The notes beneath the pieces were generated by a model that was not told the origin of the DNA, made no database searches, and was given only the letters and a program-made list of their open reading frames with translations. From the NCBI GenBank assembly GCA_964531735.1, contig CAZHGD010000013.1, positions 12,510 through 76,509 of the forward strand: a stretch of 64,000 nucleotides of DNA, read 5' to 3'. The stretch comes from an uncultured Fimbriimonadaceae bacterium (lineage in GTDB: Bacteria > Armatimonadota > UBA10988). The position numbers were made by a program, and so were the translations under genes. Every line of letters begins with the position of its first letter. The stretch's first letter is position 1. This document shows positions 1 to 59,763 of the stretch, piece by piece.

Positions 1-2459
1 TCCCAGGCCAGGTCGTAGGCGAACACCGTATCGTTCTCGCCCAGGCGGAGCTTGGTGACGATCTCGCGCATCTGGGGCCAGAGGAAGTCCATCGGTGTCC
101 CCGGCCGCAGCGACACGTTCGCTTTGAGATGGTGGTCCTCGCAGCGCATCAGCAGGTCGAGCAGGTTCCGGGCGGACAGTGCGTCATGGTAGATGAACAC
201 GCTGACCATGTTGAACCCGATGCGCTCGACACGGGCCAAGTCACGTTCGATGATAGCCGGATCGTACGCCTTGGCCGAGACCCAGCTCTCGAAGTAAGGG
301 CCTTCTTCGGTGCCGATGCCCGAGGACGGCATGTAGTTGACGCCGTGCAGGATCCACGGCCGTCCATCGAGCACGAAGTCACCGTCTTTGACCGTGACCC
401 AGCGGGGGTTGGCGTTCGGCCGCCAGACGCGCAGTTCGTGCGCGAGCCGGTCGATGGCCGCCTGGCCGCGTCGCAGCTCGACCGCCACCTTGAACGGCCC
501 GGTGGCACCCGCCGCGATGGGGCACGGCGCTGACACCGCGAGACTGCCACCGGCGGGCACGGTGACCGGCCAATCGTGGCTCCAGACCGTCTGCCCCTGG
601 TGGTTGGTGACCTCGGCGTGGATGGTGCCGGTGTTCGGCCGGAGCCCGCGGTTGGTGACCACGGCGCCGACGGGAACGTCCTCGCCACCAAACGACGCAT
701 ACCAGGCGGCGCCGCCCTCGTAGAGGAACAGGCCGTCGAGCAGGCGGCGGGCGACCTGGACGAGCCAGTCGCGGGTGGCCGGCGCGGCGAAGAAGGCCGG
801 ATCGGCAATCGGCGCGCTGACCACGACGCCGCCCGATCGGCCCTCGGCGCCGTTGAGCACCAGGGCGACCGGCGATCCGGCAACGTCGCCGCGCTCGTCG
901 AGGGCCTGGTAGAGCGGCGCGAACCGCCACGGCCGGCCCTTGTGCAGGCCGCTCCCGTCGGGTCGCGGGTGCGGGCTGAGCGCAGTGGCTGGCCGGGGTA
1001 GGGCAGCGGTCGGCGCTGCCAACAGCCCGGCGGGGTCGACGCGGTAGTTCGCCGCATTGGTGACGGGGTAGACCTTGTAGCGTGGTGAGACGGCCTCGAT
1101 GGCCGGCACGGGCGGCTCCGGCCCGGTCAGCGCCGCGGCGTCGTCACCGGCCGGCGCGCCGGAGGTGCCGAACTCGTCCAGCCAGATGGTGTGCGCGCCA
1201 TGGCCGGCCAGTCGGGTGTGGGTGTCGGCGACGCCCAGCGAGAAGCGAACGGCGTTCCGCGGCTGGAACGTGTCGCGCCGCCGGCTGTCCGGTCCGGTCC
1301 ACAGCTTGAACGCGCTGGGCGGCAGGGCGTAGGGTCGCCACTGGGTGGTCAACGGCACGACGGCGATCCACCGCGAGCCGTCGGCCTCGTCCCACTCGAG
1401 CGCGAACTCGGGCGTGCTGGCAGCGCCCTTGGCCCAGAAGCAGGTCCACGTCCGCTCGCTACCAAAGGGGTTCGGCAAGCTGGGGCTGGCGAAGGTGTCC
1501 CACCCGGTGTTGTTGGCAAGGTCTACCCGCAGGCAGCCGGCAGTGCCCTTGGCGCCGTTGGCTTCGCGCGCGCAACGGGAGGCTGGCTTGGCGTCGTTGG
1601 TGGCGCGCACCCAGGGGCCGGCGTCGCTGGTCTCGAAGTTGAGCGCCACCTGCACCGGCAGCGACTGCGCGACGGCCGACACGTAGTCGGAGTAGGCGAG
1701 CCACTGGCCGGCCCAGGGGTACAGCAGGCGGCTGAACGCGGGCCCACCCAGCACCATCAGGCGGCCACCGCGGTCCGCATACTGTGAGACGGCCTTCATG
1801 GCTTCGGCGGGCATGGTGCGGCTGTCCGCCAGAATCAGCAGGTCGATCACCTCCGGCAGCAGCAGGTCGGGGTTGACGACGGCGGCATCGTCGAGGTGTT
1901 CGACGGCGCAGCCGGCCTGTTGCAGCGACGATGCCAACGCGGCCGCGAGGTCGCGCGGCCAATCGGCCGAGGGCGGCTGGTACAGGGCCACCAGGCCCTG
2001 CGCCCCGCGGCGCGCCGCCAAGCGGGCGCGGTGGTTCTTGGCGGCCTCACGGCGACGCGCCACGACGTCGGCGCGGACGGCCGTGACCACGGCGATCGGT
2101 CGGGTGTGGACGATGGGGCAGTACGACTGACGCCAGTCGTCTCCCATCCAGACGGCCAACTGGACCTCCGGTGACTCGGCGGCCCCGGGAGCCATGAACC
2201 GAACCCGTAGGGTGCCGCTGCCCGCGACCGACCGGCGCTCCTGCGCGATGACCTCGCCGCGCGCGTCCTTCATCTCGCAGCGCAGGGCCACGGCCGGGGC
2301 GCCGTCCGGCGCGCGGTACCGTACGGTGACTTCGAACCCGGTTCGCTCCACGACCTCGCGCGGCGGATCGGGCCACTCGGCAACATAGCCGGGTTGCTGT
2401 GCGGTCGACAGGTTGGCCAGCAGCAGTAGGCATGGCCAGACGGCCAGGTGGGTTCGCAT
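1..2459 (-). CDS. Secreted glycoside-hydrolase-like protein (TIM-barrel GH, GH2/GH5-like); 5' end complete, 3' end runs off the window start
   Basis: The frame with no ORF-track entries on the minus strand is open for ~819 codons from ATG at 2459 (the track omits ORFs lacking an in-window stop). N-terminus is MRTHLAVWPCLLLLANLSTAQQ, a signal peptide. Strong GC3 bias. C-terminal region carries RPWILHGVNYMPSSGIGTEEGPYFESW...FAYDLAWE, typical of a GH TIM-barrel. Confidence 0.6.
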   Translation of the reverse strand, partial: MRTHLAVWPCLLLLANLSTAQQPGYVAEWPDPPREVVERTGFEVTVRYRAPDGAPAVALRCEMKDARGEVIAQERRSVAGSGTLRVRFMAPGAAESPEVQLAVWMGDDWRQSYCPIVHTRPIAVVTAVRADVVARRREAAKNHRARLAARRGAQGLVALYQPPSADWPRDLAAALASSLQQAGCAVEHLDDAAVVNPDLLLPEVIDLLILADSRTMPAEAMKAVSQYADRGGRLMVLGGPAFSRLLYPWAGQWLAYSDYVSAVAQSLPVQVALNFETSDAGPWVRATNDAKPASRCAREANGAKGTAGCLRVDLANNTGWDTFASPSLPNPFGSERTWTCFWAKGAASTPEFALEWDEADGSRWIAVVPLTTQWRPYALPPSAFKLWTGPDSRRRDTFQPRNAVRFSLGVADTHTRLAGHGAHTIWLDEFGTSGAPAGDDAAALTGPEPPVPAIEAVSPRYKVYPVTNAANYRVDPAGLLAAPTAALPRPATALSPHPRPDGSGLHKGRPWRFAPLYQALDERGDVAGSPVALVLNGAEGRSGGVVVSAPIADPAFFAAPATRDWLVQVARRLLDGLFLYEGGAAWYASFGGEDVPVGAVVTNRGLRPNTGTIHAEVTNHQGQTVWSHDWPVTVPAGGSLAVSAPCPIAAGATGPFKVAVELRRGQAAIDRLAHELRVWRPNANPRWVTVKDGDFVLDGRPWILHGVNYMPSSGIGTEEGPYFESWVSAKAYDPAIIERDLARVERIGFNMVSVFIYHDALSARNLLDLLMRCEDHHLKANVSLRPGTPMDFLWPQMREIVTKLRLGENDTVFAYDLAW

Positions 2460-2735: not shown

Positions 2736-5183
2736 ATGAAGTTCCGACATGTTCCGATGGGCGTGGCAGTCGGCGTTCTGCTGGCCGGTCTGCTGTTCGG
2801 CTGCGGCGGGTCCGGCTCGGGGCGGACCGGCGGCGCCCAGAGCGCCGCGTCGGCAGCGCGGGCCGGGCGGCAGACCACGACGTATCACCAGGCGGACAGG
2901 AACTCCGACGGCCGGATCGTGATCGACGAGGTGACCTCGTACATTGCCTCATGGAAGAGCGGCACGTACGACGACATCAACATGGTGACCAACGCTATCA
3001 CGCTCTGGAAGACCGGTGAGGTCTACCACTATGATGCCGCGGTGGCGCCGCCCTTTGTGCCAGGCGCGGCCGGCGTGAACCTCAGCACGGACAACGTGCC
3101 GGCGGTTCAGGGCACGCGGTCGTTCCAGGTGCCGCAGATCAGCGGCGCGGGCCTCACCAACGCCACGCTCAGTCTGGAACTGACCAACGAGAGCGACAAC
3201 ACTCGCGCGCGAAGGTTGATCCTCTACCTGACGTCCTCGGACGGCACCTTCAACCACACGCCAGTGGTGGTCACCGCGCTGTCGCGCAACCATATCGAGG
3301 GCACGGCCACCGTTGGCAACAAGGTCTACTCGGTGGTGATCGACATCTCGGATGACGGGAACAGCGTCCGGATCACCATCACGCTCGAAGGGAGCAGCGG
3401 CACCGGGCAAGGCAGTGCGGTGCCCACGAACACCGGCAGCGCTACGGCGGACGCGTCGCTAATGGCCACGGCGACGGGCAAGCTGCAGAACCTGCTGACC
3501 GACGCGGCGCAGCATCGCGTCGTGACGCTGGCGAACTTGCGGGCTGCGCGCGATGCGTTTGCGGCGGCCCGCACCAGTGGGCCGAATGACCCGGCGGCCA
3601 ACTTCGGATGGGCGGTGACCCACCTCGCCACCACGGCGCGCGAAGTCGCTGAGCAGGCCGGGGTGAGCAGTGCCGACCTCGACGAACTGACCAACCGGTC
3701 GGCCGGCGAACAGGCCATGACCGTGGCACCGCGGTTGATCACCGCGGCCAGCGCGAGCATGTTCAGCCCGGCTGGACTGGTCGACACGATCGGCAGCGCG
3801 CCCCAACTGGGCGGCGCGAGCGCCATGCTGCCGATGGGCCTGGTGTACCAGAGCGTCTCCGGCGGCGCCGCGGCCAGCCGTCGCCGCACGGTGCTGGACA
3901 ACGGGCTCGACACGGCCAAGCTGTATGCCGGCGTCCGCGACACGCTGGTGCCGGCGATCGGCGAGGCCATTCGAGCGATCGAGGTCACTCGGGCGGCGGC
4001 GAGCTTCCACTACGAGTTGCAGTTCACCGACAGCAACAGCGAGACACAGCGGCTGATCATCGAGGCGAAGGAGGCCGATCTGTTCGCGGCGGCGCTGGAC
4101 TTGCTGAGTTCGGCGGGGCAGTTCTGCTACGTCTACAACTACATCGACGCCGACTTCAACCAGAAGACCATCACGGCGGCCGAAGTCGCCGACGGTGTGC
4201 TGACGCCCGATGAGTGGTTCTACCCGACACCGTTTGGCGTCCTGCAGGTCGGCGGGCCGGCGCGAGGGCAGGCAGCTTTCCTGCGCCTGCAGTCGGCGGT
4301 GGACAAGTTGAGCCTGGCCTGGGGCAAGATCAACTCGGCCAACAGTATCGCGGGGCAGAACCTCGATGACCTGATCCCGTCCTGGCGGCGACCACGGTCG
4401 CTGTCGGCGGCCAACCGTGACAAGATCACGAACGGGCTGGCCGAGATGAAGACCATCCTGGCCGGTAAGTACACCATCAACTGGTCGTACTTCGAGACCA
4501 CGTTCGGCAACGGGGGCACGGTCGGCGCCGACTGGAAGACGACCTTCGTCTCGGTCAACGTGCCGGCGTTCTGGAACAACCCGCCGCAGGACCTGCGGAC
4601 CATCCTGCCGACGCTGGGCGAGGTGAGGCGCGGGACCGGCACCTACGCCGACTTCCGTGAGTACCTGTGTGGCACGCTGGATGGTGTTGCCAAGGGCCAC
4701 TGGCCCAGCGTTGGTGGCTCTGTCACGCTGGGCGGGCTTCTCGACCCACCAGTGACCGAGGCGGACCTGCTGACGAAGTGCCAGCTCCATGCGGTGGCAG
4801 TGCCCGGGACTGGCGGCTCGTATACGCTCAAGCTCAATCGGCGGCTACAGCCTTGGCAGACGTACACGGTGGAGTCGCCGTCGCTGCTTGGCACGTGGGA
4901 ACGGATCAGACAGTCTGTCGACGGCGGCCAGAACTGGAGCGCCACGACCGACGGGTACCGGGTGACGTTCGCCGACACGAGCAACTGGTCGGACAGCATG
5001 GCCAGGGCGGGCGTCTGGCTGCTCAACTGGACGCATCTGACCATGGCGCGCAGTGGCTACCCGAACGTGAGCGTTGACGTCTACATGTACCCCAATGGCA
5101 CGCTGATGAGATGGACGCACTATGCCGACGATACCTTTGGCACCGGCACGGGCGTGGTCACCGAGTACGCCAAGGTTCAGTAG
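2736..5183 (+). CDS. Large secreted lipoprotein of unknown function with an N-terminal EF-hand/dockerin-like Ca-binding loop
   Basis: ATG at 2736 follows GGTGGAG. MKFRHVPMGVAVGVLLAGLLFGCGGSG carries a lipobox (LFGC). DRNSDGRIVIDEV is a DxDxDG-type loop. Consistent GC3 bias over 815 codons. The ORF-track start at 2448 is an upstream in-frame extension. Confidence 0.7.
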   Translation: MKFRHVPMGVAVGVLLAGLLFGCGGSGSGRTGGAQSAASAARAGRQTTTYHQADRNSDGRIVIDEVTSYIASWKSGTYDDINMVTNAITLWKTGEVYHYDAAVAPPFVPGAAGVNLSTDNVPAVQGTRSFQVPQISGAGLTNATLSLELTNESDNTRARRLILYLTSSDGTFNHTPVVVTALSRNHIEGTATVGNKVYSVVIDISDDGNSVRITITLEGSSGTGQGSAVPTNTGSATADASLMATATGKLQNLLTDAAQHRVVTLANLRAARDAFAAARTSGPNDPAANFGWAVTHLATTAREVAEQAGVSSADLDELTNRSAGEQAMTVAPRLITAASASMFSPAGLVDTIGSAPQLGGASAMLPMGLVYQSVSGGAAASRRRTVLDNGLDTAKLYAGVRDTLVPAIGEAIRAIEVTRAAASFHYELQFTDSNSETQRLIIEAKEADLFAAALDLLSSAGQFCYVYNYIDADFNQKTITAAEVADGVLTPDEWFYPTPFGVLQVGGPARGQAAFLRLQSAVDKLSLAWGKINSANSIAGQNLDDLIPSWRRPRSLSAANRDKITNGLAEMKTILAGKYTINWSYFETTFGNGGTVGADWKTTFVSVNVPAFWNNPPQDLRTILPTLGEVRRGTGTYADFREYLCGTLDGVAKGHWPSVGGSVTLGGLLDPPVTEADLLTKCQLHAVAVPGTGGSYTLKLNRRLQPWQTYTVESPSLLGTWERIRQSVDGGQNWSATTDGYRVTFADTSNWSDSMARAGVWLLNWTHLTMARSGYPNVSVDVYMYPNGTLMRWTHYADDTFGTGTGVVTEYAKVQ

Positions 5184-5256
5184 CCAGTCTGCGCCATCGC
5201 AGGCACCGGCGCGCGACGGCGCGCGATGCCAACATCGTGGCCGGAGGGGGTGTGCC

Positions 5257-6615
5257 GTGGCGGTTGCTACGGCCGTGCTTGCGCGACGATGGTGCCTGCT
5301 CGCGGTGTTGGTGGTCGCGGTGCGGCCCACCCATGCCGGCGTGTTTGACCTCGCGCTGGGCAGCGACGACGTGTCGCACGCCTGGGTGCCGCGGCCGGAG
5401 CGGGGGATGTTGACGACCGATGACGAGGCGCTGCAGGCACGGCCGCGCGTCGATCACGAGTACCGGAGCGGGCCGCGGCTGCGCTGGTGGCGAGGCGGCC
5501 GGCTCGATGGCGCCGCGGATTCGAGCGCCGATCTGTGGCGCGTCTCCGCGCGGGTGGCCGGTGCGCGCCTTCAGGCCGAACTGTGGCGCGAGCGTGACGC
5601 CATCGACCAGGGCCGCACCACGCACGACACCTCGGCCAGCGCGCGGCTGCCGCAGGCCAGCCTTCGGCTGGTCTGCCCTGTGACGCCGCGCTGGCGTCTG
5701 GCCGCCGGCTACGACTACCAGCGCTGGCAGTTCGAGGCCCTGTCCAGCAGTCCGAAGCTGCAACCAACCAGCGACGGGGTCTTCGCGCTCGACCAGCGGC
5801 GGCAGCGCTGCTGGCTGGGTGTCGGTGGCGACATCGGCGACTTGAGTCTGGCGCTGAACGGGGCTTGGCGCGACCATCGTGGCTCGCTGTCCACGCACCT
5901 GCGCCACATGCTGGGCACCGTCGGCCTGGGCGGGCCCGGCTACGAGATAGCCGCCGTGGTGGGTGTCCGGGCCGGCGCCGGCTGGTGCGTCCGCCTCGGT
6001 GCCGGCTACACCAACGTGCGCAGCCATGCGGGGATCCGGCTGGATGGTGTGCGCCACGGTCGCTCATCGCCCTATGAGACGGAGTTCCGCTGGTCGGCCG
6101 AGGCGCAGGGCGCGGTCAGCTCGTCGCTCGACTGGTGGGGCGCGGTCTACCACCGGCGGTTCCACTTCGGTGACGCCGGCGGTGCGACGGCCCTGGCCCC
6201 GCCACTCGGCTCGCTCATCGGCCCGTACTACCGAGTCAGCGCCGACCTGGACCTGATGATGACCGGGTTGGGCAGCGGGCTCTCTTGGCGCGCCGACCGG
6301 CGCTCGCAACTGTCCACCGCGATCAACCTCGGCGTCGGCCACGCAGTAGGCGGCTACGGCGCCTGGGAACGGAACGGTAGCAAGCCGGAGAAGCTGATCA
6401 GCACGAGTAGCGTGGACCAGGGCCTGCTGCTGCTGGGCCTGTCGCTCAGCGGCGAGCAGCGTCTGGGCACGGTCACCGTGGGCGCGGGCACGTTCGCGCC
6501 GGTGCTCCTGCCGCACAACCGGCGAGCGCGCCCGTCGGGCGGCGGGGCGGGCGGGCAGGGCTCGCGGATCGCGGTGGGCGTGCCCTTCCGCGTCTGGGTG
6601 TCAGTGCCGTGGTAA
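5257..6615 (+). CDS. Outer-membrane beta-barrel protein (porin-like), unknown family
   Basis: GTG at 5257 follows GGAGGGGG with a 6-nt spacer. Signal peptide VAVATAVLARRWCLLAVLVVAVRPTHA/G. Gly/Arg-rich alternating beta-strand-like composition. C-terminus ...VPFRVWVSVPW ends in an aromatic residue, the OMP signature. It sits 70 nt downstream of the lipoprotein gene. Confidence 0.55.
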   Translation: MAVATAVLARRWCLLAVLVVAVRPTHAGVFDLALGSDDVSHAWVPRPERGMLTTDDEALQARPRVDHEYRSGPRLRWWRGGRLDGAADSSADLWRVSARVAGARLQAELWRERDAIDQGRTTHDTSASARLPQASLRLVCPVTPRWRLAAGYDYQRWQFEALSSSPKLQPTSDGVFALDQRRQRCWLGVGGDIGDLSLALNGAWRDHRGSLSTHLRHMLGTVGLGGPGYEIAAVVGVRAGAGWCVRLGAGYTNVRSHAGIRLDGVRHGRSSPYETEFRWSAEAQGAVSSSLDWWGAVYHRRFHFGDAGGATALAPPLGSLIGPYYRVSADLDLMMTGLGSGLSWRADRRSQLSTAINLGVGHAVGGYGAWERNGSKPEKLISTSSVDQGLLLLGLSLSGEQRLGTVTVGAGTFAPVLLPHNRRARPSGGGAGGQGSRIAVGVPFRVWVSVPW

Positions 6616-10134: not shown

Positions 10135-11034
10135 TCAACCGCCGACGACGCCGAAGTAGTGGTCGAAGAAGCGGGCCGGCTCGACGGTGGCCGCGATCCG
10201 GTGCTGCGGCTGCTCGCCGCCGGCGTCGAAGCGCGTCAGGCCGAAGGCCAACTCGCTGTGCGTATCGACCCGGACCTGGCCGTCGCGCCAGGTACACAGG
10301 TCGGGCTCGAACAGGCACGCGGCCGCCAGCGGGTCATGGAAGGTGAGCCGGCCGGCGTGGTGGAACCAGACCTCGGCCATGTCGAGGACCGCCGAGAGTG
10401 GCCCTCCGGCGGTGCGGAAGCGCGAGCGGACCGCATCGGGCTCCATGGTGCACTGCAGCGTCACGTCCAGGCCGACGGCCTGTGTGCCGACCGGACCACG
10501 ATCGAAGGCGATCCGCGCCGCCTCCGGGTCGCAGAGGATGTTCCACTCGCTGTATGGCCCGTGCGCTTCGTAGGGCAGGAAGCGGCCACCCATCATCGTG
10601 TAGCCGGCGAGCAGCGACGGGATCTCCGGGTCGGTCGCGAACAGCAGACCGATGTTGGTCAGCGGGCCGATGGAGAGCAAGGTGATCTCACCGGGGTTGG
10701 CGCGGATGGTCTGCCGCAGCCATTCCACAGCGGTGCTCGGCGCGAAGTCGGCGCGGTGCGGCCAGCGCTCCAGCGCGGCCGCCTGCCTGGCCTCGCCCTG
10801 GGTGACACCGCGCAGCAGCGAGGGCTCCGGCCCGCAGTGGATCGGCACCTCCGCTCGCCCGGCGGCGCGGCACACGGCATCGGCCAGCCGAGCGCGGTCG
10901 AGCTGCGCGCCCGACGCGATGCTGATGCCGACCAACTCGCAGCGCGGCTGCAGCAGCAGATAGGCCAGCGCCACCGCGTCATCGATGTCGGTACCGATAT
11001 CCGTGTCCAGGATCACCCGCAGTCGGTCGCTCAC
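10135..11034 (-). CDS. Inosine-uridine preferring nucleoside hydrolase (IU-NH family)
   Basis: N-terminal aspartate cluster ILDTDIGTDIDDAVALAYLL. 299 aa, typical of RihA/B/C-like enzymes. Confidence 0.85.
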   Translation of the reverse strand: MSDRLRVILDTDIGTDIDDAVALAYLLLQPRCELVGISIASGAQLDRARLADAVCRAAGRAEVPIHCGPEPSLLRGVTQGEARQAAALERWPHRADFAPSTAVEWLRQTIRANPGEITLLSIGPLTNIGLLFATDPEIPSLLAGYTMMGGRFLPYEAHGPYSEWNILCDPEAARIAFDRGPVGTQAVGLDVTLQCTMEPDAVRSRFRTAGGPLSAVLDMAEVWFHHAGRLTFHDPLAAACLFEPDLCTWRDGQVRVDTHSELAFGLTRFDAGGEQPQHRIAATVEPARFFDHYFGVVGG

Positions 11035-26528: not shown

Positions 26529-26723
26529 TGCGCCCTCCCGCCGCGCCGATGTGCCTGGGCGCGGCTGCCAACGAGCGCGATTCTACCACTCCGCAGGGCG
26601 GCATGCAACTGCCGTAGCGACCTCGGCGCAGCTTGTGGCCACCTGGCGGCTGTGGTATAGTCGCCGGCGATGGGCGGTGGCCGCGACGGTCAGAGGGCGG
26701 CGGGCCGACGGGTCGGTGGAGCG

Positions 26724-28172
26724 GTGCATTTCCTATTCCTGGCGGCGCTGATGTGGCTACCGACGGTGGCGGCACGGCAGGCGCAGACACTCGATATCAA
26801 CGGCCACAGCATCGCGATCGAGGCCGATCACATCCAGGTGGACGGCGCGGCGCGCAAAGCCTATCTGGTCGGTGGTGCGGCCATCCGTAGCGGGCGCACC
26901 TCGTTCCGGGCCGACCAGATTGTCGTCGACTACTCGCGTCCAGAGCGCCCCAGCGCCACCGCTGCGGGGCATGTGGTGCTCGACAGCCCGCAGTTGGGCC
27001 GCGTCACGGGCGACCGCTTACGCTACGACCTGGCCGTCCAGCGCGGTGAGATCCACGACGTCGAGGTGACCATTCCGCTCGACTTCACGCCGAACCTGTC
27101 GGACCTGATGCGGTCGAGTGAGTTGCCCAAAGAGCTGCGCTTGCGCGCCACGGAGGCGGCGCAGCTCGGCAACCAGGTGCTGCTCAAGGGCACCTCGGCC
27201 ACCTGTTCGAGCAGCCGCCCGCCGCAGTTCCTGTTGAAGTCCGACCAGATCGTGGTCAGTGCCGGCAAGCTCGGTGTGCTGAGCGGCTTGGAGCAGTTGC
27301 AGGCCCGCGGCGTGAAGCTGCAACTCTACGGGCTGACGGTGCTCGGGCTGCCGGACATGAACCTGCGCTCGGGTGACATCATCATCCCGCGGGTCGGTCT
27401 CGACAGCACCTACGGTCTCTACGTCGAGCGCTCGTTGGTGCCGATCGCGGCCAAGCCGTTCCGGCTGACCATCACGCCTCGCGTGGGGACCAATCTGCTG
27501 ATGACCGGCCACGGCGAGGCCACGTTCAGCACCGACGTCGGGCGACTGGCCTTGTCGGCCGCCTACCGCAACCGGCTGGTGCTGCCGGTCAGCCGCCAGA
27601 CCGTGGTCTACTCGGTGGGTCCCGAGCTGAGTTGGCGAACTGCCGAGTTCAAACTGCCGCGTGGCGGCGGTAGCTGGTCGGGCGGCGCCAGCGGCGGCTA
27701 CTACCGCGAGATCGGTGGCCCGCGCGCCTGGCGGGCGCAGACGGACCTGACCTACCGCCAGCCGCTCTACGCCAACCGCACCACGCGGGCCTGGATCGCC
27801 GGCACCGGCTGGTACGCCGTGTACGGCCGCGCCGGGCACTACGGTTGGCTGCGAGGCGACCTCGGGCTGGAGAAGCGGTTTGGTGACTTGGCCTATGTGG
27901 GCGTGGGGGCCACCTCGCACTGGATTGGCGGCCAGACGCCGGTGCGCTTCGACCGGATCGAACTGGTGAGCGACGTGACCGTGTCGACGCGGTGGCGTGT
28001 GGCACGGCAGTGGCTGATCGGCAACCGCCTCGACTACGATCTGGAACGCGGTGCCGTGCGGCGCGAGGAGTACTCGCTGGCCTACCGTGACCGGCTGATC
28101 GAGTACGAACTGCGCGTGCTGACCCAGCCCAGCACCGAAGTGCGCCTGGGGGCCAGGCTGTTGGGCTTCTGA
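26724..28172 (+). CDS. LptD/OstA-like outer-membrane protein (short form)
   Basis: Signal peptide MHFLFLAALMWLPTVAARQ from the GTG at 26724, after GGTGGAG. The alternative ATG at 26670 would be leaderless relative to the putative promoter. OstA-like N-terminal block HSIAIEADHIQVDGAARKAYLVGGAAIRSGRTSFRADQIVVD...LRYDLAVQRGEIHD. Beta-strand-rich remainder ending ...RLGARLLGF (C-terminal Phe). Confidence 0.55.
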   Translation: MHFLFLAALMWLPTVAARQAQTLDINGHSIAIEADHIQVDGAARKAYLVGGAAIRSGRTSFRADQIVVDYSRPERPSATAAGHVVLDSPQLGRVTGDRLRYDLAVQRGEIHDVEVTIPLDFTPNLSDLMRSSELPKELRLRATEAAQLGNQVLLKGTSATCSSSRPPQFLLKSDQIVVSAGKLGVLSGLEQLQARGVKLQLYGLTVLGLPDMNLRSGDIIIPRVGLDSTYGLYVERSLVPIAAKPFRLTITPRVGTNLLMTGHGEATFSTDVGRLALSAAYRNRLVLPVSRQTVVYSVGPELSWRTAEFKLPRGGGSWSGGASGGYYREIGGPRAWRAQTDLTYRQPLYANRTTRAWIAGTGWYAVYGRAGHYGWLRGDLGLEKRFGDLAYVGVGATSHWIGGQTPVRFDRIELVSDVTVSTRWRVARQWLIGNRLDYDLERGAVRREEYSLAYRDRLIEYELRVLTQPSTEVRLGARLLGF

Positions 28173-29222: not shown

Positions 29223-32213
29223 TCACTTCACGCGCACGAACTCGAAACGGTCGATCCAGACGCCCTTGACCGCGCTCTTCTGCGTCTTGAGGTCGAACCG
29301 GCCGGGCCCGGCCCAGACCCAGTGATCGGTCTCGGGTACCCAGGCGGTCAGGTCGTACCACTGGTAGCCATCCTTCACCGCGGTGACCGGCACGTTGACC
29401 TCGCCCCAGCCGCGGCGGCGCACCGTGTCGTAGACGCCGGCCCAGAAGGCCAACCCGGTGTCGGCGGCCCTTTCGACCCGAATGCGCGCGCGCGCCTGGT
29501 ACTTGGCCTCGGGGACGAACATCCGCGCATCGATCAGGTACTGCACGCACCACTCGTAGTGCGTGTTGGTCATCATCATCGCATAGCCGTCGGTGGCCGC
29601 AGCGTCGGGCACCAGGTCGCCCCAGGTGCCGGGCCGGCTGATCGAGATGAATGCGCTGGGCACGACGATGCGGTCGGCGCGATGCGCGTCGACGGCTTCG
29701 CCCGGCCGTGACGGCAGGTCGGCGACCTTGGCCAGCGGTGACATCTCCAGCGGCAGGCGCAAGGGCTGGCCGGGCACCAGTGCCGCCGGCACCACCAGGT
29801 ACAACCGGACCAGGGCCGGATCGGTGCCGACCTCGACCAGCAGGCGTTCGGCGGTGACCTCGGGCAGCGTCAGCCGGAGCCCGCGGCCGCCGGCGCCGGC
29901 GATGGTCAGCGCGCCCTTCAGTTCGTTGCCCGGAATGCTCCAGGTCGCGCGTGTCTGGTCGGCCGGCACCACGAGCGTCCGCCAGTCGCCCGTGCCGACG
30001 CGCAGATGGACGACGGCCGTGGGTCCGACGTCGAGCGCACAGCGCCAGGTGAGGGCCGTTTGGCGCGCGCCGGCCACCGACCATTCGGTCGATAGGCGAG
30101 CCGTGTCGGCCGTGACCGTGACCACGCGATCGGTACGCTCTCGCCCGTGGCCCTGGCGTCGGAGCACGAGCCGGCCGGGCTTGTTCTCCAAAGTGCGGTA
30201 GCTGGCCTCGTCGGGTCGGTTCAACCGGAAGCGGCCCTCGATGGTGTCGACACCGCCCGCAGCCGAGCTCACGTACTCGGCGCCGTTGAGGGTCAGCGAG
30301 AGCAGCGCGCCGTTGGCCTCGCCAATCGCGCCGGCAGACAGCGCGCCGCTACTGACCCGCTCCATCGGCATGCCGGCGGTCCGCGAGCGGTAGAGCGAGA
30401 GCACCGCCCGGTGCCGCTCTTCGCTCTCCGCAATGCGCATGCGGCCCTCCTCGAGCCGCCGCAGCGCCTCGGTCGCCAGCTCGGCGTAGGCCGGGTCGAC
30501 TCCCTCGGCGCGCAGCACGCCGTCGCGCAGCACGCGCTTCACCTTCATCGCGGGCCAGCGCTCCAGCTTCGCGTAGAGGACCGGCAGGCCGCTCATCCGG
30601 ACGCGGTAGAGCGCCTTCGGGTCGTCCTTGACCCGGCGCTCCGCCTCGGCCCACAGCTTGGTCGCGCGCTCGAAGAAGGCGTCGCTGTAGAACGGCGACT
30701 TCATCGACTGCCAGATGAACAGGTGGGTCTTCTCGTCCTTGACCAGCGCCTGGAGCTCGTCGAAGTAGGTGCGGACCGGTTCGGCGGCCGCACCGTAGTA
30801 GCCACTGAAGAAGTCGTCGTAGAGCTTGTCGACGCTCTGGTCCGGATTCCAGAGCAGTTGCGCCAGCAGCCAGCCACGCAACTCGCCGAACTCGCCGTGC
30901 GCGCCCTGGTAGGCGCCTTGCTCGAACAGGCCGACCACATGGTTGTCGCGGAAGAACTGCACGTTGCCTTGCAGGCAGCCGAAGTTCGGGTGCGGACCGA
31001 CGTAGTGGCCGAAGTTGGTAGTGTAGTCCCAGACGTAGAGCTTGTCGGTCATGCCGGACCAGCCGCGGATCTCCTGCACGAACCGCTTGTTCTGCTCGTG
31101 CTGGCTGAGCGGCAGCGGCTTCGAGAAGTCGCACTCGATGCTGCACAGCCGGGGCACCACATTGCGCCGCGGCGAGAGCGTCTTGGGCGGGCGGCGGGTG
31201 TACTGGTAGGCCAGCGTCTCGATCCACACGTTGGGGAACTCGCGCTCGACGGCCTCGGCGATCTGGTTGACCGCAAACAGCAGCGAACCGGCGGGAGTGC
31301 CCTCGCGCTCGTCGATGGCGCGGCACCGCGCGCAGGTGCAGTTGTTGCCCCAGTCGTTCTGGCTGACGCTGAACAGCTTGCCGGTCGGGTCCTTGCGGAT
31401 CCGGGCCAGGACCCGCTCGGTGAGGATGCGGATGACGTCCGGATGGGTCCAGCAGAGCTGCGCGTGCTCGGCGACGCGCTGGCCCTTGAGCTCGCTGTAG
31501 TACTCGGGGTGCGGGCCGAAGAACTCCTCGGGCGGCATGAGCGGGTAGGCGGTGTGGACGAACAGACCGCCGCCGAAACGGATCTTGCCGCCGTGGCGCG
31601 CTTCGAGCCGCATGGAGCTGCCGTTGGCCTTGTTCCGGGCGGCCTGGTCGCCGTCGAACATGTCCCACCAGAACGGCTCGCGCATCGCGAAGGCGGGGGT
31701 CTGGGTCTCGTCCAACTCCGGCAGCGTCCAGGTCTTGCGCTGTGGGATGACGCTGTGGAAGCTGGCATACCAGCGGCAGCCGCCGTACTTGCTCAGCAAC
31801 TCGTAGACACCGTAGAGCGTGCCGCGGACCGGGGAGCCGAGGATGAGCAGCTGCCCACGGCGCGTCACCAGTCGGAAGCCGTCATCGCCCAGCTTGCCCA
31901 ACTCGAGCGGTGCGCCGAGCGCCGCCGCGGAATGGCGGGTCTCACCGAGCAGGATGGCCTTGGCCGGCAGCGGGGCCTCATCGCTGATGATGGCCAGTTC
32001 GGCGCCGGTCATCTGCTTGGTGAAGCGGCGGAGTTCCTCGGCGGCATGGAGCTGCGAGGGAGAGGCCTGCGCGGGCCGGACGATCTGGTAGGCGGAGGCA
32101 CCGTCGCGTGCCAGCTCCAGGCTGTTCTGTGCACCAGCCTGTCGTGCCAAGACCGCACCGGCGGCCACGGCGGCGCCCGTGCGCAGGAAGTCGCGTCGAT
32201 CGATCCCGGCCAT
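29223..32213 (-). CDS. Tat-secreted DUF4838-domain protein, putative glycoside hydrolase
   Basis: MAGIDRRDFLRTGAAVAAGAVLA is a twin-arginine signal. ATG at 32213 follows GGGAG. The ORF-track start at 32243 is a GTG extension. 996 aa with a long conserved central region. Confidence 0.7.
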   Translation of the reverse strand: MAGIDRRDFLRTGAAVAAGAVLARQAGAQNSLELARDGASAYQIVRPAQASPSQLHAAEELRRFTKQMTGAELAIISDEAPLPAKAILLGETRHSAAALGAPLELGKLGDDGFRLVTRRGQLLILGSPVRGTLYGVYELLSKYGGCRWYASFHSVIPQRKTWTLPELDETQTPAFAMREPFWWDMFDGDQAARNKANGSSMRLEARHGGKIRFGGGLFVHTAYPLMPPEEFFGPHPEYYSELKGQRVAEHAQLCWTHPDVIRILTERVLARIRKDPTGKLFSVSQNDWGNNCTCARCRAIDEREGTPAGSLLFAVNQIAEAVEREFPNVWIETLAYQYTRRPPKTLSPRRNVVPRLCSIECDFSKPLPLSQHEQNKRFVQEIRGWSGMTDKLYVWDYTTNFGHYVGPHPNFGCLQGNVQFFRDNHVVGLFEQGAYQGAHGEFGELRGWLLAQLLWNPDQSVDKLYDDFFSGYYGAAAEPVRTYFDELQALVKDEKTHLFIWQSMKSPFYSDAFFERATKLWAEAERRVKDDPKALYRVRMSGLPVLYAKLERWPAMKVKRVLRDGVLRAEGVDPAYAELATEALRRLEEGRMRIAESEERHRAVLSLYRSRTAGMPMERVSSGALSAGAIGEANGALLSLTLNGAEYVSSAAGGVDTIEGRFRLNRPDEASYRTLENKPGRLVLRRQGHGRERTDRVVTVTADTARLSTEWSVAGARQTALTWRCALDVGPTAVVHLRVGTGDWRTLVVPADQTRATWSIPGNELKGALTIAGAGGRGLRLTLPEVTAERLLVEVGTDPALVRLYLVVPAALVPGQPLRLPLEMSPLAKVADLPSRPGEAVDAHRADRIVVPSAFISISRPGTWGDLVPDAAATDGYAMMMTNTHYEWCVQYLIDARMFVPEAKYQARARIRVERAADTGLAFWAGVYDTVRRRGWGEVNVPVTAVKDGYQWYDLTAWVPETDHWVWAGPGRFDLKTQKSAVKGVWIDRFEFVRVK

Positions 32214-32356
32214 CTGTTCAGCTCCCGCGCGGATATGTGCCACGCGCGGGCCGGCGTGTCAACCCGGATCGAGCGGGCCGGTGCGCCGGGTGCCCCAGCA
32301 ACTCGTGGCAGGACAGTGCCGCACCAGGGCCAAACCAGGCGCTACGGAAGAACGAT

Positions 32357-35300
32357 ATGCGCTCCCTGGTTATGCTCCTTGCCGCGCTCGGAGTGGCCTG
32401 TGCCCAGAGCGATGTGGGCCGTGAGTTGGTGACCAACGGCAGCTTCGAGGCCCACACCAAGGAGGCGCAGTGGCCGGATGGCTACCAAGGCGACCGGCGC
32501 GCGGTGCAGTACTTGGCCGAGGACGGCAACCGCTTCGTGCGCATCGAGAGCCGCGTGCCGGGGCAAGCCACCAACGGCTCGGTCGGCCAGACGCTGCGGA
32601 TCGCGCCCGACTGGTTCCGCTTGCGCGTGCGCATCAAGGTGCGGCTGAAGGACGTCGTCCGTGGCACCGAGGGCTGGCATGACGCGCGCGTCGCCATGAG
32701 CTTTCACGACGCTGCCGGCAAGCAGGTGGGCGGCTGGCCCAACGTGATGAACTGGTCTGGCTCCACGGACGGCTGGACCGTGCAGGAGCGGCTGTACAAG
32801 GTGCCCGACGGCGCCACCGAGTTGCGCATCACGCCGGCGCTGTTCAGCGCCACCGGCCGCGTCGATTTCGACGATTTCTCCGTGACCGTGGTCTCGCTGC
32901 GCCCTAAGCTGGAGGACGCGCCGCTGCCGGAGGGCGTGGTGGCCGAGTGGGGGCTGGCGAAGGCCTGGCGCGAGCGAACGGGTCAGCGCGAGCGCGTCTG
33001 CCTGAATGGGCTCTGGCGCTTCTGTCCGCAGCTCGGGGCTCTGCCGGCAGCGCCCCGGCGGCCGGCGAATGGGCAAGGGTGGGGCTGGCTGAAGGTGCCG
33101 GCGGCCTGGCCGGGACGCGGGCTGGAGGTCACCAAGCCGCTGGGTCCGGACATCTGGGAGAACCTGTTCGAGTGGAGCAAGCTCACCGCGGGCTGGTACG
33201 AGCGCGAGATCACGGTGCCTGCGGACTGGGCCGGGCGCAAGACCGCGCTGACCATCGACATGCCGCAGACCGAGGCCCTGGTCCTCGTGGATGGCCAACC
33301 AGTCGGCTCGGTGCGTTGGCCGGCCGGGCGGGTGGATCTGTCGGGCGTGCTCCAGCCCGGCCAGCAGGCGCGGTTGACGGTGCTGGTGACGACGGATCCG
33401 CTGGCCAAGGAGCGGCTGGTGGCGATGCGCGAGGACTTCGTCGAGAAGATCCGCGCCGAAGTGCGGTTCCGCGGTCTCTGCGGCGACCTGTTCCTGGTCG
33501 CCGAACCGAGCGGAGCGCGGCTGGGCACTGTCCAGGTGCGACCGTCGGTGCGGCGCCAGGCACTGGGCCTGAGCGCGCGGCTGGCCGACCTGGACGCCGG
33601 TGCCACGTACCACCTGGAAGCCGTGGCCAGTCGCAACGGCGAAGAGGCGTGGCGCGGGCGTAGCGGCACGCTGGGCGGGGCCGGACAGGGCGACTTCACC
33701 TGCCAGTTGCCGTGGCCGCAACCGGCTCTGTGGGACTTCGAGCGGCCGAACCTCTACGACCTCGACGTGTCGCTCCGCAATGCCGCCGGCGAAGTGCTCG
33801 ACACCATGCGGACGCGGTTCGGCTTCCGCGAGTTCTGGATCGAGGGCCGCGACCTGATGCTCAACGGGCGGCCGGTGCACTGGCGCGCCGCCGACTACCA
33901 CGCCGTGTCGCACGATGGCGGCGTCACCAAGCCGTTCGCGAGGCGCGCCTTTGCGCGCCTGCGCAGCCTCGGGTTCAACTTCATCATTCTGGGCAACTAC
34001 GGGCTCGATCCGGGCCAGACCCCGGCGTTCGGCGAGTTGCTGGAGGCCGCCGACGAGGCCGGTTTCGCGCTCTCGTTCAGCCTGCCGCACGTGTTCAGCG
34101 AGTTCACCGACCGCCGCCAGGGCCTCGGCGACGACTGGCAGAAGGTGGCCCGCTACGCGGTCGAAACGGTGGGCAACCATCCCAGTGTCCTGGCCTATGC
34201 AGCCAACCACAACCGCTTGGGCTACTACGGCGACCAGAACCCCGAGAAGATGGATGGCGTGCACCAGCACGAGCCGCCGAAGGCGGCGAGCCCCTGGTTC
34301 TACCAGGGCCGCGAACGGGCGGCCGAAGGCGAGGCGTTCGTGCGCCGCCTCGATCCCACGCGCGAGCTGTACCACCACCAGTCCGGGCACATGGGGGCGT
34401 GGCACACGGTCAACATCTATCTCAACTGGAGCCCCGCGCAGGAGCGCAGCGAGTGGCTCAGCCACTGGGCGCAGAGCGGGCGCAAGCCACTGTTCTTCGT
34501 GGAGTGGGGGCCACCGCACCAGGCCTCCTGGGGCGGACACCGCCAAGGGCCGTTCATCTGGCGGAACAAGGTCAACTCGGAGCCACTGGCGGTCGAATAC
34601 GGCGCCATGCACACCGGCGATGCGGCCTACGAGCCGGACCCGGTCGCCGAACGCTATGTGGACACCTACGAACGCGTCTATGCCAAGCGCGAGCCGTTCC
34701 ACATCAGCCAGGTGTTCAGCCCGCTGTGGGGTGCGGTCCACGAGCGCAACTACATCGAGCTGAAGTCGCTCTACACCGACATCGTCTGGCCGCGCCTGCG
34801 CACCTGGGGCATCTCGGCGATTCTGCCGTGGGACCAGGGCGATGTCGCCCTGGCACCGGGCGACTCCGCTGCCGAGTACCCGGTCGCCACTGACTGGGCG
34901 GCACTGCAGCGGCCCGGGCGCGCGCCGGACTTCGAGCGCACCGGTGGCGACTACTTCCAGTCGCGGCGCGAGAACTGGATGCTGACGTCGTTCGGCCGGA
35001 GCTTCCAGCGCTGGAACCAGCCGGTCATCGCCTACCTGGCCGGCGCGCCGGAGCGCTTCACCGAGCGCGAACACAACGTGCGCCCGGGGCAGCGAATCAC
35101 CAAGCAGGCCATCCTGGTGAACGATAGCGCCGACACCGTGACGGCCGCGTTCTCCTGGTACCTGACCGTCGGCCGGACGACCTTGGCGACTGGCGACGGC
35201 ACGCTGACGGCACCGGCGGGCGGGCAGCAGCGCGTGCCGTTCACCGTGACCGTGCCGGCCGAGCCGCGCGGTGAGTTCACGCTGTCGTTGGTGGTCCGCC

Positions 35301-37132: not shown

Positions 37133-37144
37133 GGAGCAAGGCTG

Positions 37145-38191: not shown

Positions 38192-38210
38192 GCCGGTAGT
38201 GGAGAAGGCA

Positions 38211-41012: not shown

Positions 41013-41027
41013 GCCAAGGAGGGCTCT

Positions 41028-42278: not shown

Positions 42279-42309
42279 CACGAGGCGGCCGTTCGTCGCC
42301 GCCGGAAGG

Positions 42310-59691: not shown

Positions 59692-59717
59692 CGCAAACGT
59701 CGGGAAGGACCGTCCCG

Positions 59718-59762
59718 CAGGCTCCCGAACCACCGCAACACGCGGTTGGCGCGGGAGCCTGC
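59718..59762 (+). promoter_or_regulatory. RBS-sequestering hairpin immediately upstream of the GH gene start
   Basis: GCAGGCTCCCG ... CGGGAGCCTGC is an 11-bp perfect stem with a nested ACCGC/GCGGT stem. The right arm contains GGGAG 6 nt before the ATG at 59764, and CTCCC in the left arm pairs with it. Preceded by a second small hairpin CGGGAAGGACCGTCCCG (59701-59717). Confidence 0.45.
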
Positions 59763-59763
59763 G

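What the first reader, a model, noticed from the sequence alone, without database searches (positions are those of the whole stretch)
2736..6615. Co-directional lipoprotein (EF-hand/dockerin-like Ca loop) plus outer-membrane beta-barrel pair of unknown family
An 815-aa lipoprotein with a DxDxDG Ca-binding-like loop right after the lipobox is followed 70 nt downstream by a 452-aa protein. That second protein has a signal peptide, Gly/aromatic-rich strand-like composition and a C-terminal Trp. The arrangement suggests a surface-exposed lipoprotein / barrel complex, analogous to but not homologous with SusD/SusC or Slam-type systems. Neither protein shows motifs of a family I can name. The pair is divergently oriented from a secreted glycoside hydrolase, which hints at a glycan-capture role.
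Basis: partly seen in the sequence, partly recalled or inferred. Interest (0 to 1): 0.55.

Follow-up and report, generated by a model that had tools for sequence, protein, structure and literature searches.

The report
Orphan lipoprotein plus outer-membrane barrel pair
Two neighbouring genes of unknown family, a lipid-anchored protein and a probable outer-membrane pore, always occur together in six lineages of little-known (probably Armatimonadota) bacteria; they look like a new two-part outer-membrane machine, possibly for handling sugars, but its job is not established.

Summary
ORF A (2736-5183, 815 aa) is a lipoprotein and ORF B (5257-6615, 452 aa) is a signal-peptide protein ending in Trp; both are really coding. 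Neither matches Pfam, NCBIfam or any PDB sequence. An exhaustive HMMER scan of 1.84 billion representatives found only seven B relatives.

Wherever a B relative could be placed on a contig, an A relative sits directly upstream on the same strand. That holds in six lineages, one from a bin labelled Armatimonadota, so the pair is an obligate two-gene module.

Evidence that B is an outer-membrane beta-barrel is indirect:
- It has a conserved AxA signal peptide.
- It has a conserved alternating C-terminal strand ending in an aromatic residue.
- Its period-2 amphipathicity is at or above that of E. coli porins.
- The AlphaFold model is poor, yet its top 50 Foldseek hits are all membrane beta-barrels, nearly all bacterial outer-membrane ones.

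The Ca-loop module and the C-terminal domain of A occur only in this lineage. Both proteins diverge much faster than their neighbours. The genomic context does not fix a function: GH172 lies upstream in two related loci, and a DUF6785 membrane protein lies adjacent or nearby in two. The upstream 'glycoside hydrolase' is unproven.

Best guess: an outer-membrane lipoprotein-barrel complex for carbohydrate uptake. Function and surface exposure remain untested.

The parts
2736..5183 (+). Gene A: 815-aa lipoprotein of an undescribed family
   Evidence: ORF and translation. GC3 of 0.86 in frame. No Pfam, NCBIfam or PDB match. Homologues at 27-40% identity lie upstream of every placed B homologue.
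2736..2804 (+). Signal peptide and lipobox (LLFG-C23), followed by a Gly/Ser tether
   Evidence: Read directly from the sequence. The Cys followed by a (poly)Gly linker is invariant in the 5-sequence alignment and also present in L007.
2895..2930 (+). EF-hand/dockerin-type Ca-loop DRNSDGRIVIDE, inside a lineage-specific insertion of about 90 aa (residues ~30-116)
   Evidence: It is the only regex match in the six-frame translation of the window. It is absent from all five homologues whose N-terminus is available. No Pfam EF-hand or dockerin hit.
3084..3410 (+). Beta-rich (Ig-like?) spacer domain of A, residues ~117-225
   Evidence: Seven strands in the AF2 DSSP, with the best pLDDT of the model at 50-60. 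Conserved in L001-L005. The same domain is C-terminal in L008 (E 2e-6) and absent in L007.
3504..4775 (+). Conserved, mostly helical core of the A family, residues ~257-680. Motifs: PNDPxANFG, AGQNLDDL, AGKYTIN, NVPAFxxNPPxDLRxILPTFG, VTLGGLLDPP
   Evidence: This is the only part shared by all lineages, including distant L007 (27% identity, E 3e-24). Invariant columns cluster at residues 480-672.
4791..5180 (+). Lineage-specific Trp-rich C-terminal domain of A, residues ~686-815
   Evidence: No counterpart in any homologue. No paralogue in the window. No family hit.
5184..5256 (+). 73-nt A-B spacer with GGAGG (5243-5247) 9 nt before the GTG start of B
   Evidence: No terminator-like or promoter-like site in the spacer. 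No Rfam match.
5257..6615 (+). Gene B: 452-aa probable outer-membrane beta-barrel of an undescribed family
   Evidence: ORF. GC3 of 0.85-0.88. Only 7 relatives among 1.84 billion representatives. No Pfam or PDB match. Beta-hairpin DSSP. All top 50 Foldseek PDB hits are membrane beta-barrels, nearly all bacterial outer-membrane ones. Period-2 amphipathicity z of 4.5 alone and 6.4 as a family.
5257..5337 (+). Sec signal peptide of B (cleavage after T-H-A27). The mature N-terminus carries the family motif (G/S)PLDWxxGSxD
   Evidence: The AxA site followed by the conserved motif is aligned in all full-length homologues.
6580..6612 (+). C-terminal strand VPFRVWVSVPW, with alternating hydrophobic residues and a terminal aromatic (beta-signal-like), preceded by a Pro/Gly-rich linker
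   Evidence: Conserved in every homologue that has a C-terminus (terminal W in all, F in L007).
3..2459 (-). Divergent upstream gene, cut by the window edge: secreted protein of at least 819 aa, possibly a glycoside hydrolase. Context only; not conserved at other loci

Best explanation
A and B form an obligate two-gene outer-membrane module of two undescribed protein families, confined to a few uncultured, probably Armatimonadota, lineages.

B is exported by Sec and inserted by BAM as an outer-membrane beta-barrel of roughly 16-18 strands. It carries a conserved ~45-residue N-terminal segment.

A is lipidated at Cys23 and sent to the outer membrane. It hangs on a flexible Gly-rich tether. Its conserved helical core (residues ~257-680) docks onto B, and variable add-on domains (Ig-like spacer, Ca-loop module, C-terminal Trp-rich domain) face outward.

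The most likely job is TonB-independent capture and passage of a carbohydrate or oligosaccharide across the outer membrane. That would make it a functional analogue of SusD/SusC or of a binding lipoprotein with a specific porin, not a homologue.

Shown: both genes are real; A has lipoprotein features and B has signal-peptide features; the pair is syntenic in six lineages; no known family matches; both evolve rapidly.

Inferred: the barrel fold, the A-B contact, surface exposure, the substrate class and the direction of transport.
For: Coding and features.

Synteny: A lies directly upstream of B on the same strand in six lineages, with gaps of 20-111 nt where measured. These are the window, L001/L002, L003/L004, L005/L006 (bin labelled Armatimonadota_UBA10988), L008+L014 and distant L007. 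Pairwise identities in the A and B families rank the lineages the same way.

Barrel evidence:
- Family-averaged period-2 hydrophobic moment has z = 6.4, with no helical periodicity.
- Single-sequence z is 2.9-4.5 for five B proteins, 1.0-3.4 for E. coli OmpF/OmpC/LamB/FadL, and -1.6 to +0.9 for 24 of the 28 other proteins scored.
- AF2 DSSP shows about 17 hairpin strands.
- All 50 best Foldseek PDB hits are membrane beta-barrels, nearly all bacterial outer-membrane ones. The equally poor model of A gave a mixed, non-barrel list.
- The C-terminal alternating strand ending in W or F is conserved.

An outer membrane exists. An LptD-like gene lies in the window, and cryo-EM shows a diderm envelope in the Armatimonadota isolate Fervidibacter (PMC11535203).

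Surface or uptake hints:
- A and B are 34-46% identical between loci whose neighbouring genes are 49-81% identical.
- Accessory domains of A are shuffled, gained and lost.
- GH172 lies directly upstream in L003 and L005. CBM9, BNR and beta-helix proteins are nearby, and the window is rich in carbohydrate-active enzymes.
Against: - No confident structure exists. Models have pLDDT 35 and 36, and Foldseek TM-scores are only 0.2-0.28.
- The amphipathicity metric also flagged a soluble nucleoside hydrolase at z = 3.4.
- The carbohydrate context is not universal. GH172 adjacency is confined to one subclade, L007 has no GH nearby, and the window's upstream 'GH' is unverified.
- These genomes are dense in carbohydrate-active enzymes, so proximity can arise by chance.
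- The DUF6785 polytopic membrane protein (adjacent to the pair in L007, 3 kb away in L005) fits export as well as import.
- The phylum of the window itself is inferred from one bin label on a homologous locus.
Confidence: 0.4

Rival explanations
1. Export conduit. A is a periplasmic helical scaffold lipoprotein and B the outer-membrane exit pore for a cell-surface polymer or glycoconjugate, working like AlgK-AlgE, PelB/C or PgaA/B. The DUF6785 polytopic protein would be the inner-membrane flippase or polymerase.
For: The gene order (helical lipoprotein, then a barrel of about 450 aa) and the sizes resemble algK-algE (from my own knowledge). AlgE structures recur among the Foldseek hits at ranks 6, 18, 21, 30 and 44. 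A DUF6785 membrane protein sits immediately upstream and co-directional in L007 and nearby in L005/L006. A GT2 gene lies 2.6 kb away in the window.
Against: No synthase, glycosyltransferase or Wzx/Wzy/Wzc-type gene is conserved next to the pair. The window's GT2 is on the opposite strand beyond relA and is absent from the other loci. There are no Alginate_exp, TPR or Sel1 hits. Rapid divergence and domain shuffling of A fit a surface protein better than a periplasmic scaffold.
Confidence: 0.2
2. Dedicated display system. B is a translocon and/or anchor that carries lipoprotein A to the cell surface, working like Slam or like a porin-held lipoprotein such as MtrB-MtrC. A itself would be an adhesin, enzyme or receptor unrelated to transport through B.
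For: Strict one-to-one synteny and matching divergence of A and B. A long Gly tether and modular, fast-evolving accessory domains in A. Known Slam genes sit next to their lipoprotein substrates (from my own knowledge).
Against: B has no DUF560 match and no N-terminal TPR domain. A shows no catalytic, haem-binding or adhesin motif. No experimental data exist on its topology.
Confidence: 0.15
3. Envelope architecture. The pair is a structural outer-membrane complex, such as a tether across the very wide Armatimonadota periplasm or an anchor for a surface layer, with no transport role.
For: Armatimonadota have a ~55 nm periplasm (PMC11535203). A has a long flexible tether and a large helical body. 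In L007 the neighbours are housekeeping and envelope genes (PAP2, CDP-diglyceride synthase, alanine racemase, ExbBD) rather than glycoside hydrolases.
Against: The distribution is very narrow: 7 hits among 1.84 billion representatives, and two pattern-based scans of GTDB species-representative genomes found nothing, not even the source genome. That argues against a core envelope role. There is no SLH, OmpA-like or peptidoglycan-binding domain.
Confidence: 0.1
4. B is not a membrane barrel. A and B are simply two co-expressed secreted or periplasmic proteins of unknown function.
For: Structure prediction failed at pLDDT 35. Foldseek TM-scores are at most 0.28. The amphipathicity test gives false positives.
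Against: All independent indirect indicators agree: signal peptide, conserved terminal aromatic strand, period-2 signal in five homologues, and exclusively membrane-barrel Foldseek hits.
Confidence: 0.1

Closest known systems
SusC/SusD-type glycan import pairs of Bacteroidota
   Same: An outer-membrane barrel gene sits adjacent to the gene for a large, mainly helical lipoprotein. The loci contain or neighbour glycoside hydrolases. The lipoprotein evolves fast and is modular.
   Different: No sequence relationship exists: no TonB_dep_Rec, Plug or SusD/RagB hits. B is 452 aa, far too small for a 22-strand plugged TonB-dependent transporter, and no TonB box was identified. The gene order is reversed (lipoprotein first). 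The phylum is different.
AlgK-AlgE (also PelB/C, PgaA/B, BcsC) exopolysaccharide export modules
   Same: A helical lipoprotein gene is followed by a gene for a barrel of about 450-490 aa. AlgE is among the weak fold hits. A polytopic inner-membrane protein is linked in two lineages.
   Different: There are no Alginate_exp, TPR or Sel1 matches. No synthase or modifying enzymes lie in the neighbourhood. The pair is embedded among catabolic genes.
Slam (DUF560) translocons and their neighbouring surface lipoproteins
   Same: A barrel gene lies next to the gene for a lipoprotein that may be surface-displayed.
   Different: There is no DUF560 match. B has no periplasmic TPR domain. A bears no resemblance to TbpB-like substrates.
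Substrate-specific 14-18-strand channels (LamB/ScrY, OprD/OccK, chitoporin, FadL)
   Same: Size (about 420 mature residues), beta-hairpin content and a terminal aromatic residue. These are the best, though weak, Foldseek matches. The conserved N-terminal segment of B could act like the FadL hatch.
   Different: No sequence family membership. These channels do not come with an obligate partner lipoprotein.

Membership tests
Bacterial lipoprotein (A) | Signal peptide ending in a lipobox [LVI][ASTVI][GAS]-C, with the Cys as the first mature residue | tested here: met
   LLFG-C23 fits the pattern. The Cys followed by a Gly-rich linker is invariant in the 5-sequence alignment and also present in L007. 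Two homologues have less canonical -2/-3 residues. Lipidation itself was not tested.
Outer-membrane beta-barrel protein (B) | Sec signal peptide | tested here: met
   An n-h-c signal peptide with an AxA cleavage site is conserved in all full-length members.
Outer-membrane beta-barrel protein (B) | C-terminal beta-signal: alternating hydrophobic strand ending in an aromatic residue | tested here: met
   VPFRVWVSVPW. The terminal residue is W in all members that have a C-terminus and F in L007.
Outer-membrane beta-barrel protein (B) | Closed antiparallel barrel of amphipathic strands | tested here: inconclusive
   Period-2 amphipathicity is at or above that of E. coli porins. The model shows about 17 hairpin strands and gives only membrane-barrel Foldseek hits. 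But the model has pLDDT 35 and TM-scores of at most 0.28. Barrel closure and strand number are not established.
SusC (TonB-dependent transporter) / SusD (RagB) | Plug + 22-strand TonB_dep_Rec domains in the barrel; SusD/RagB domain in the lipoprotein | tested here: not met
   No Pfam or NCBIfam hit even at E of 10 or less. B is only 452 aa.
Slam (type XI secretion) translocon | DUF560 barrel with an N-terminal TPR domain | tested here: not met
   No DUF560 or TPR hit. The N-terminal region of B before the first predicted strand is only about 45 residues.
AlgE/AlgK-type exopolysaccharide export | Alginate_exp barrel, a TPR/Sel1 lipoprotein, and a synthase operon | tested here: not met
   No such Pfam hits. 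No synthase is conserved in any of the loci.
Classical porin / LamB / OprD / FadL / OprB families | Match to the family profile | tested here: not met
   No Pfam match for any of 8 members at E of 10 or less, apart from one DUF3575 hit at E 0.54. A profile search of PDB sequences found nothing. Only weak fold-level similarity.
EF-hand / dockerin Ca-binding module (N-terminal insert of A) | 12-residue loop D-x-[DNS]-x-[DNS]-G-x-[ILV]-x-x-x-[DE] within a recognised domain; dockerins carry two such repeats | tested here: inconclusive
   The loop DRNSDGRIVIDE matches the core pattern once. As I recall PROSITE PS00018, Val at loop position 9 falls outside it. There is no second loop and no Pfam EF-hand or dockerin hit. 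Ca binding was not tested.
Glycoside hydrolase (divergent upstream gene) | Recognisable catalytic domain | tested here: inconclusive
   Only weak accessory-domain hints and a TIM-barrel-like start where the window ends. No PDB or Pfam catalytic hit.

The most novel reading that the evidence does not exclude
The pair is a previously unrecognised, TonB-independent outer-membrane nutrient-capture machine of Terrabacteria-type diderms. A fast-evolving surface lipoprotein would act as 'lid' or binder, docked on a dedicated barrel of a new fold family. That would be the Armatimonadota answer to SusCD, evolved independently. In some lineages it would be coupled to the uncharacterised DUF6785 inner-membrane protein to form a complete trans-envelope route.
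Probability: 0.2. Interest if true: 0.7.

Novelty: new variant of a known kind. Interest (0 to 1): 0.42.

Why it matters
Almost nothing is known about how Armatimonadota move substrates across their outer membrane. They are polysaccharide-degrading diderms that branch within the mostly single-membrane Terrabacteria, and they lack SusCD systems.

A conserved lipoprotein-barrel cassette built from two families absent from Pfam, NCBIfam and the PDB is a concrete candidate for such a route, or for a new way of displaying surface lipoproteins. It would add two new outer-membrane protein families.

The pair evolves very fast compared with its neighbours. That also makes it a candidate phage-receptor or surface-antigen locus.

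If it turns out to be one more specific porin with an accessory lipoprotein, the value is mainly in annotation.

Tried and rejected
**Homologue searches**
- The word-index search with full-length A returned only the protein itself. Low-complexity words swamped the candidate list.
- Repeating it with an alignment of the conserved core returned nothing at all, not even the query, so that search was wasted.
- Two pattern scans of GTDB species-representative genomes, one with A and one with B, found nothing. The source genome is not among them.

**Structure**
A therefore had to be folded as a single sequence, which gave pLDDT 35.6 and is unusable. Its Foldseek hits are non-significant small beta proteins.
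- B folded with three sequences gave pLDDT 34.9.

**Profile and family searches**
- Profile searches of A and B against PDB sequences gave only noise.
- Pfam at E of 10 or less on all family members gave only noise.
- NCBIfam found nothing for A, B, DUF6785 or the extra L005 genes.

**Other checks**
- The locus has no Rfam element.
- The DNA upstream of A is not conserved between lineages.
- No terminator lies between A and B.
- No paralogue of A or B, or of the add-on domains of A, exists in the window.
- Literature searches for DUF6785, the accessions and the sample ids returned nothing.

**Rejected readings**
- ORF artefact: ruled out by codon-position GC and conservation.
- TonB-dependent transporter, Slam or AlgE membership: ruled out by failed family tests.
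- A core role for the Ca loop: ruled out because the homologues lack it.

Full report
**1. What is in the sequence**

A runs from ATG 2736 to the stop at 5183 (815 aa). B runs from GTG 5257 to the stop at 6615 (452 aa).

Third-position GC is 0.86-0.88 in these frames with GC1 > GC2, the signature of real + strand genes in this genome. Both starts follow Shine-Dalgarno-like sequences: GGAG 8 nt before A and GGAGG 9 nt before B. The A-B spacer is 73 nt and has no terminator-like hairpin.

A begins MKFRHVPMGVAVGVLLAGLLFG-C23-GGSGSG, a standard lipobox followed by a flexible tether. Residues 54-65 read DRNSDGRIVIDE, a DxNxDGxIxxxE calcium-loop pattern. It is the only such match in all six frames of the window.

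B has an n-h-c signal peptide ending T-H-A|G. It is rich in Gly, Ala, Leu, Arg and Trp and ends VPFRVWVSVPW.

**2. No known family, and very few relatives**

- Pfam and NCBIfam give nothing for either protein. Relaxing to E of 10 or less and scanning every family member gives only noise.
- Profile searches against all PDB sequences give only noise.
- The word-index search of 5.8 billion proteins found only the protein itself for A, and one relative (P0003, 38% identity) for B.
- An exhaustive HMMER search of 1.84 billion cluster representatives with a B profile found just seven proteins at E of 1e-3 or less. Two of them are fragments of one gene.
- Two pattern scans of GTDB species-representative genomes found nothing. 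One JGI/NCBI metagenome contig was recovered with A.

**3. The pair is conserved as a pair**

Every B relative that could be placed on a contig has an A relative directly upstream on the same strand:

| Locus | Source | Arrangement |
|---|---|---|
| L001 | Logan | A and B |
| L002 | JAANMV010002102 | A and B |
| L003/L004 | Logan | A and B |
| L005/L006 | ENA bin named Armatimonadota_UBA10988 | A and B |
| L008+L014 | GCA_013360385.1 | fragments |
| L007 | 93-kb JGI contig (distant) | 439-aa lipoprotein matching A residues 257-678 (E 3e-24), then a 476-aa B-like protein |

The gaps are 20-111 nt where measured.

Every A homologue whose N-terminus is available keeps the Cys followed by a (poly)Gly tether. 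Pairwise identities rank the lineages the same way in both families.

**4. Anatomy of A**

Only residues ~257-680 are shared by every lineage. The most invariant stretch is 480-672, with the motifs AGQNLDDL, AGKYTIN, NVPAFxxNPPxDLRxILPTFG and VTLGGLLDPP. The single-sequence AF2 secondary structure is mostly helical here, but the model is unreliable at pLDDT 35.6.

The beta-rich domain at residues ~117-225 is N-terminal in most lineages. It is C-terminal in L008 (E 2e-6) and absent in L007.

The ~90-residue insert carrying the Ca loop and the 130-residue Trp-rich C-terminal domain exist only in the window's protein. The Ca loop is therefore an accessory feature, not part of the core mechanism.

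**5. Is B a barrel?**

A confident model could not be obtained. Only three sequences were admissible, giving pLDDT 34.9 and pTM 0.36. The indirect evidence is consistent:

- The model's DSSP shows about 17 strands of 8-16 residues arranged as hairpins.
- The family-averaged hydrophobicity has a strong period-2 signal (z = 6.4 against shuffles) and no helical periodicity.
- As single sequences, five B proteins score z = 2.9-4.5. E. coli OmpF, OmpC, LamB and FadL score 1.0-3.4. Of the 28 other proteins scored, 24 fall between -1.6 and +0.9.
- Among the outliers are one clear false positive, a nucleoside hydrolase, and one probable true positive, an LptD-like protein.
- All 50 best Foldseek matches in the PDB are membrane beta-barrels: OmpT, ScrY, OmpC, AlgE, FadL, OccK, BamA, VDAC and the like. 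The best E-value is 3.4e-4 and TM-scores are only 0.2-0.28.
- The equally poor model of A gave a heterogeneous, non-significant list. This shows that the result for B is not an automatic outcome of a bad model.
- The signal-peptide cleavage site, a conserved mature N-terminus ((G/S)PLDWxxGSxD) and the alternating C-terminal strand ending in W or F are conserved.

I put about 0.8 on B being an outer-membrane barrel, with roughly 16-18 strands.

An outer membrane is expected. The window encodes an LptD-like protein (sub-threshold LptD_N, DUF3769 and LptD hits). The cultured Armatimonadota member Fervidibacter sacchari is diderm by cryo-EM, with a ~55 nm periplasm (PMC11535203). The phylum of the window itself is inferred from the bin label of L005 and from 49-74% identity of other window genes to L002.

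**6. Context and function**

Nothing but A-B is conserved at all loci.

- A GH172 gene lies directly upstream and co-directional in L003 and L005. These are sister lineages, so this counts as one event.
- A polytopic membrane protein (DUF6785/DUF6784; 17 partly overlapping hydrophobic windows, roughly a dozen membrane spans) abuts the pair in L007. One also lies 3 kb away on the opposite strand in L005/L006.
- In the window the downstream gene is a convergent relA/spoT.
- The window's divergent upstream gene encodes a secreted protein of at least 819 aa. It has only weak GH-accessory hints, and any catalytic domain lies beyond the window edge.
- The window and L005 are generally rich in carbohydrate-active enzymes. 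That weakens any argument from proximity.

A more telling observation is the rate of change. Between the window and L002, syntenic neighbours are 49-74% identical, but A is 40% and B 34%. Between L003 and L005, GH172 is 81% identical, but A is 41% and B 46%.

Fast divergence plus gain, loss and shuffling of accessory domains is what one expects of cell-surface components.

**7. Explanation and rivals**

I favour an outer-membrane complex. B is a channel. The conserved helical core of A docks on it, and the variable domains of A are exposed. The complex would serve TonB-independent capture and uptake of a carbohydrate (confidence 0.4 for the whole chain; about 0.75 for 'obligate lipoprotein + outer-membrane barrel module').

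Rivals:
- An AlgK/AlgE-like export conduit, possibly working with DUF6785 (0.2).
- A dedicated display or translocation system for A (0.15).
- A structural envelope complex (0.1).
- B not being a barrel at all (0.1).

None of these can be separated without a confident structure or an experiment.

**8. Comparison and novelty**

Functionally the closest analogies are SusCD, AlgK-AlgE, Slam with its lipoprotein, and specific porins. Every membership test by sequence failed, and B is too small for a TonB-dependent transporter.

The kind of system, an outer-membrane barrel with a partner lipoprotein, is well known. The two families and their restriction to a handful of uncultured lineages are new. 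I therefore rate it a new variant of a known kind, of moderate interest (0.42).

It is a real, conserved and wholly unannotated module in a poorly understood envelope. However, there is no structural or functional evidence yet that it does anything unprecedented.

Noticed in passing
window 26661-28172 (+): An unannotated protein of about 480-500 aa. It has sub-threshold Pfam hits to LptD_N (E 2.6e-3), DUF3769 and LptD, strong beta amphipathicity (z = 3.1) and a C-terminal ...RLLGF. It is probably a reduced LptD-like outer-membrane protein, which would imply an LPS outer membrane in this organism.
   Followed up: partly
window 3-2459 (-), cut by the window edge: The divergent neighbour of A is a secreted protein of at least 819 aa with no solid domain match. 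It shows weak GH42M/DUF4350-like (residues 173-252) and Mannosidase_ig-like (residues 600-642) hints, then a TIM-barrel-like start. Residues 173-291 are 29% identical to part of the GH42-like 1436-aa ORF at 59692-63999.
   Followed up: partly
window vs L002; L003 vs L005: A and B diverge far faster than adjacent genes. Neighbours are 49-74% and 81% identical, against 34-46% for A and B. This suggests diversifying selection or relaxed constraint on a surface module.
   Followed up: partly
L007 6051-8015 (+); L005 14361-16286 (-): An uncharacterised polytopic membrane protein (Pfam DUF6785/DUF6784; 17 partly overlapping hydrophobic windows, roughly a dozen membrane spans). It sits immediately upstream of the A-B pair in the most distant lineage and 3 kb away in another. 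No paper in the searched library mentions the family.
   Followed up: partly
L005 11380-14246 (+): Two further co-directional genes of unknown family (703 aa and 231 aa) follow the B homologue in L005/L006. They have no counterpart at the other loci or in the window.
   Followed up: partly
L008 2-805 (+): The beta-rich domain that is N-terminal in the window's A is found at the C-terminus of the A homologue here (30% identity over 81 aa, E 2e-6). This is domain permutation within the family.
   Followed up: yes
window 29223-43398: A dense block of carbohydrate-active genes: a TAT-signal DUF4838/GH67N protein, a 1702-aa GH2-like protein, a 959-aa beta-helix/GH141-like protein and an AXE1-like esterase. 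Part of it (36314-43395) is syntenic with L002 8214-12564 at 49-74% amino-acid identity.
   Followed up: partly
window 10135-11034 (-): The inosine-uridine nucleoside hydrolase scored z = 3.4 in my period-2 amphipathicity test. It is a false positive and shows the limits of that metric.
   Followed up: no
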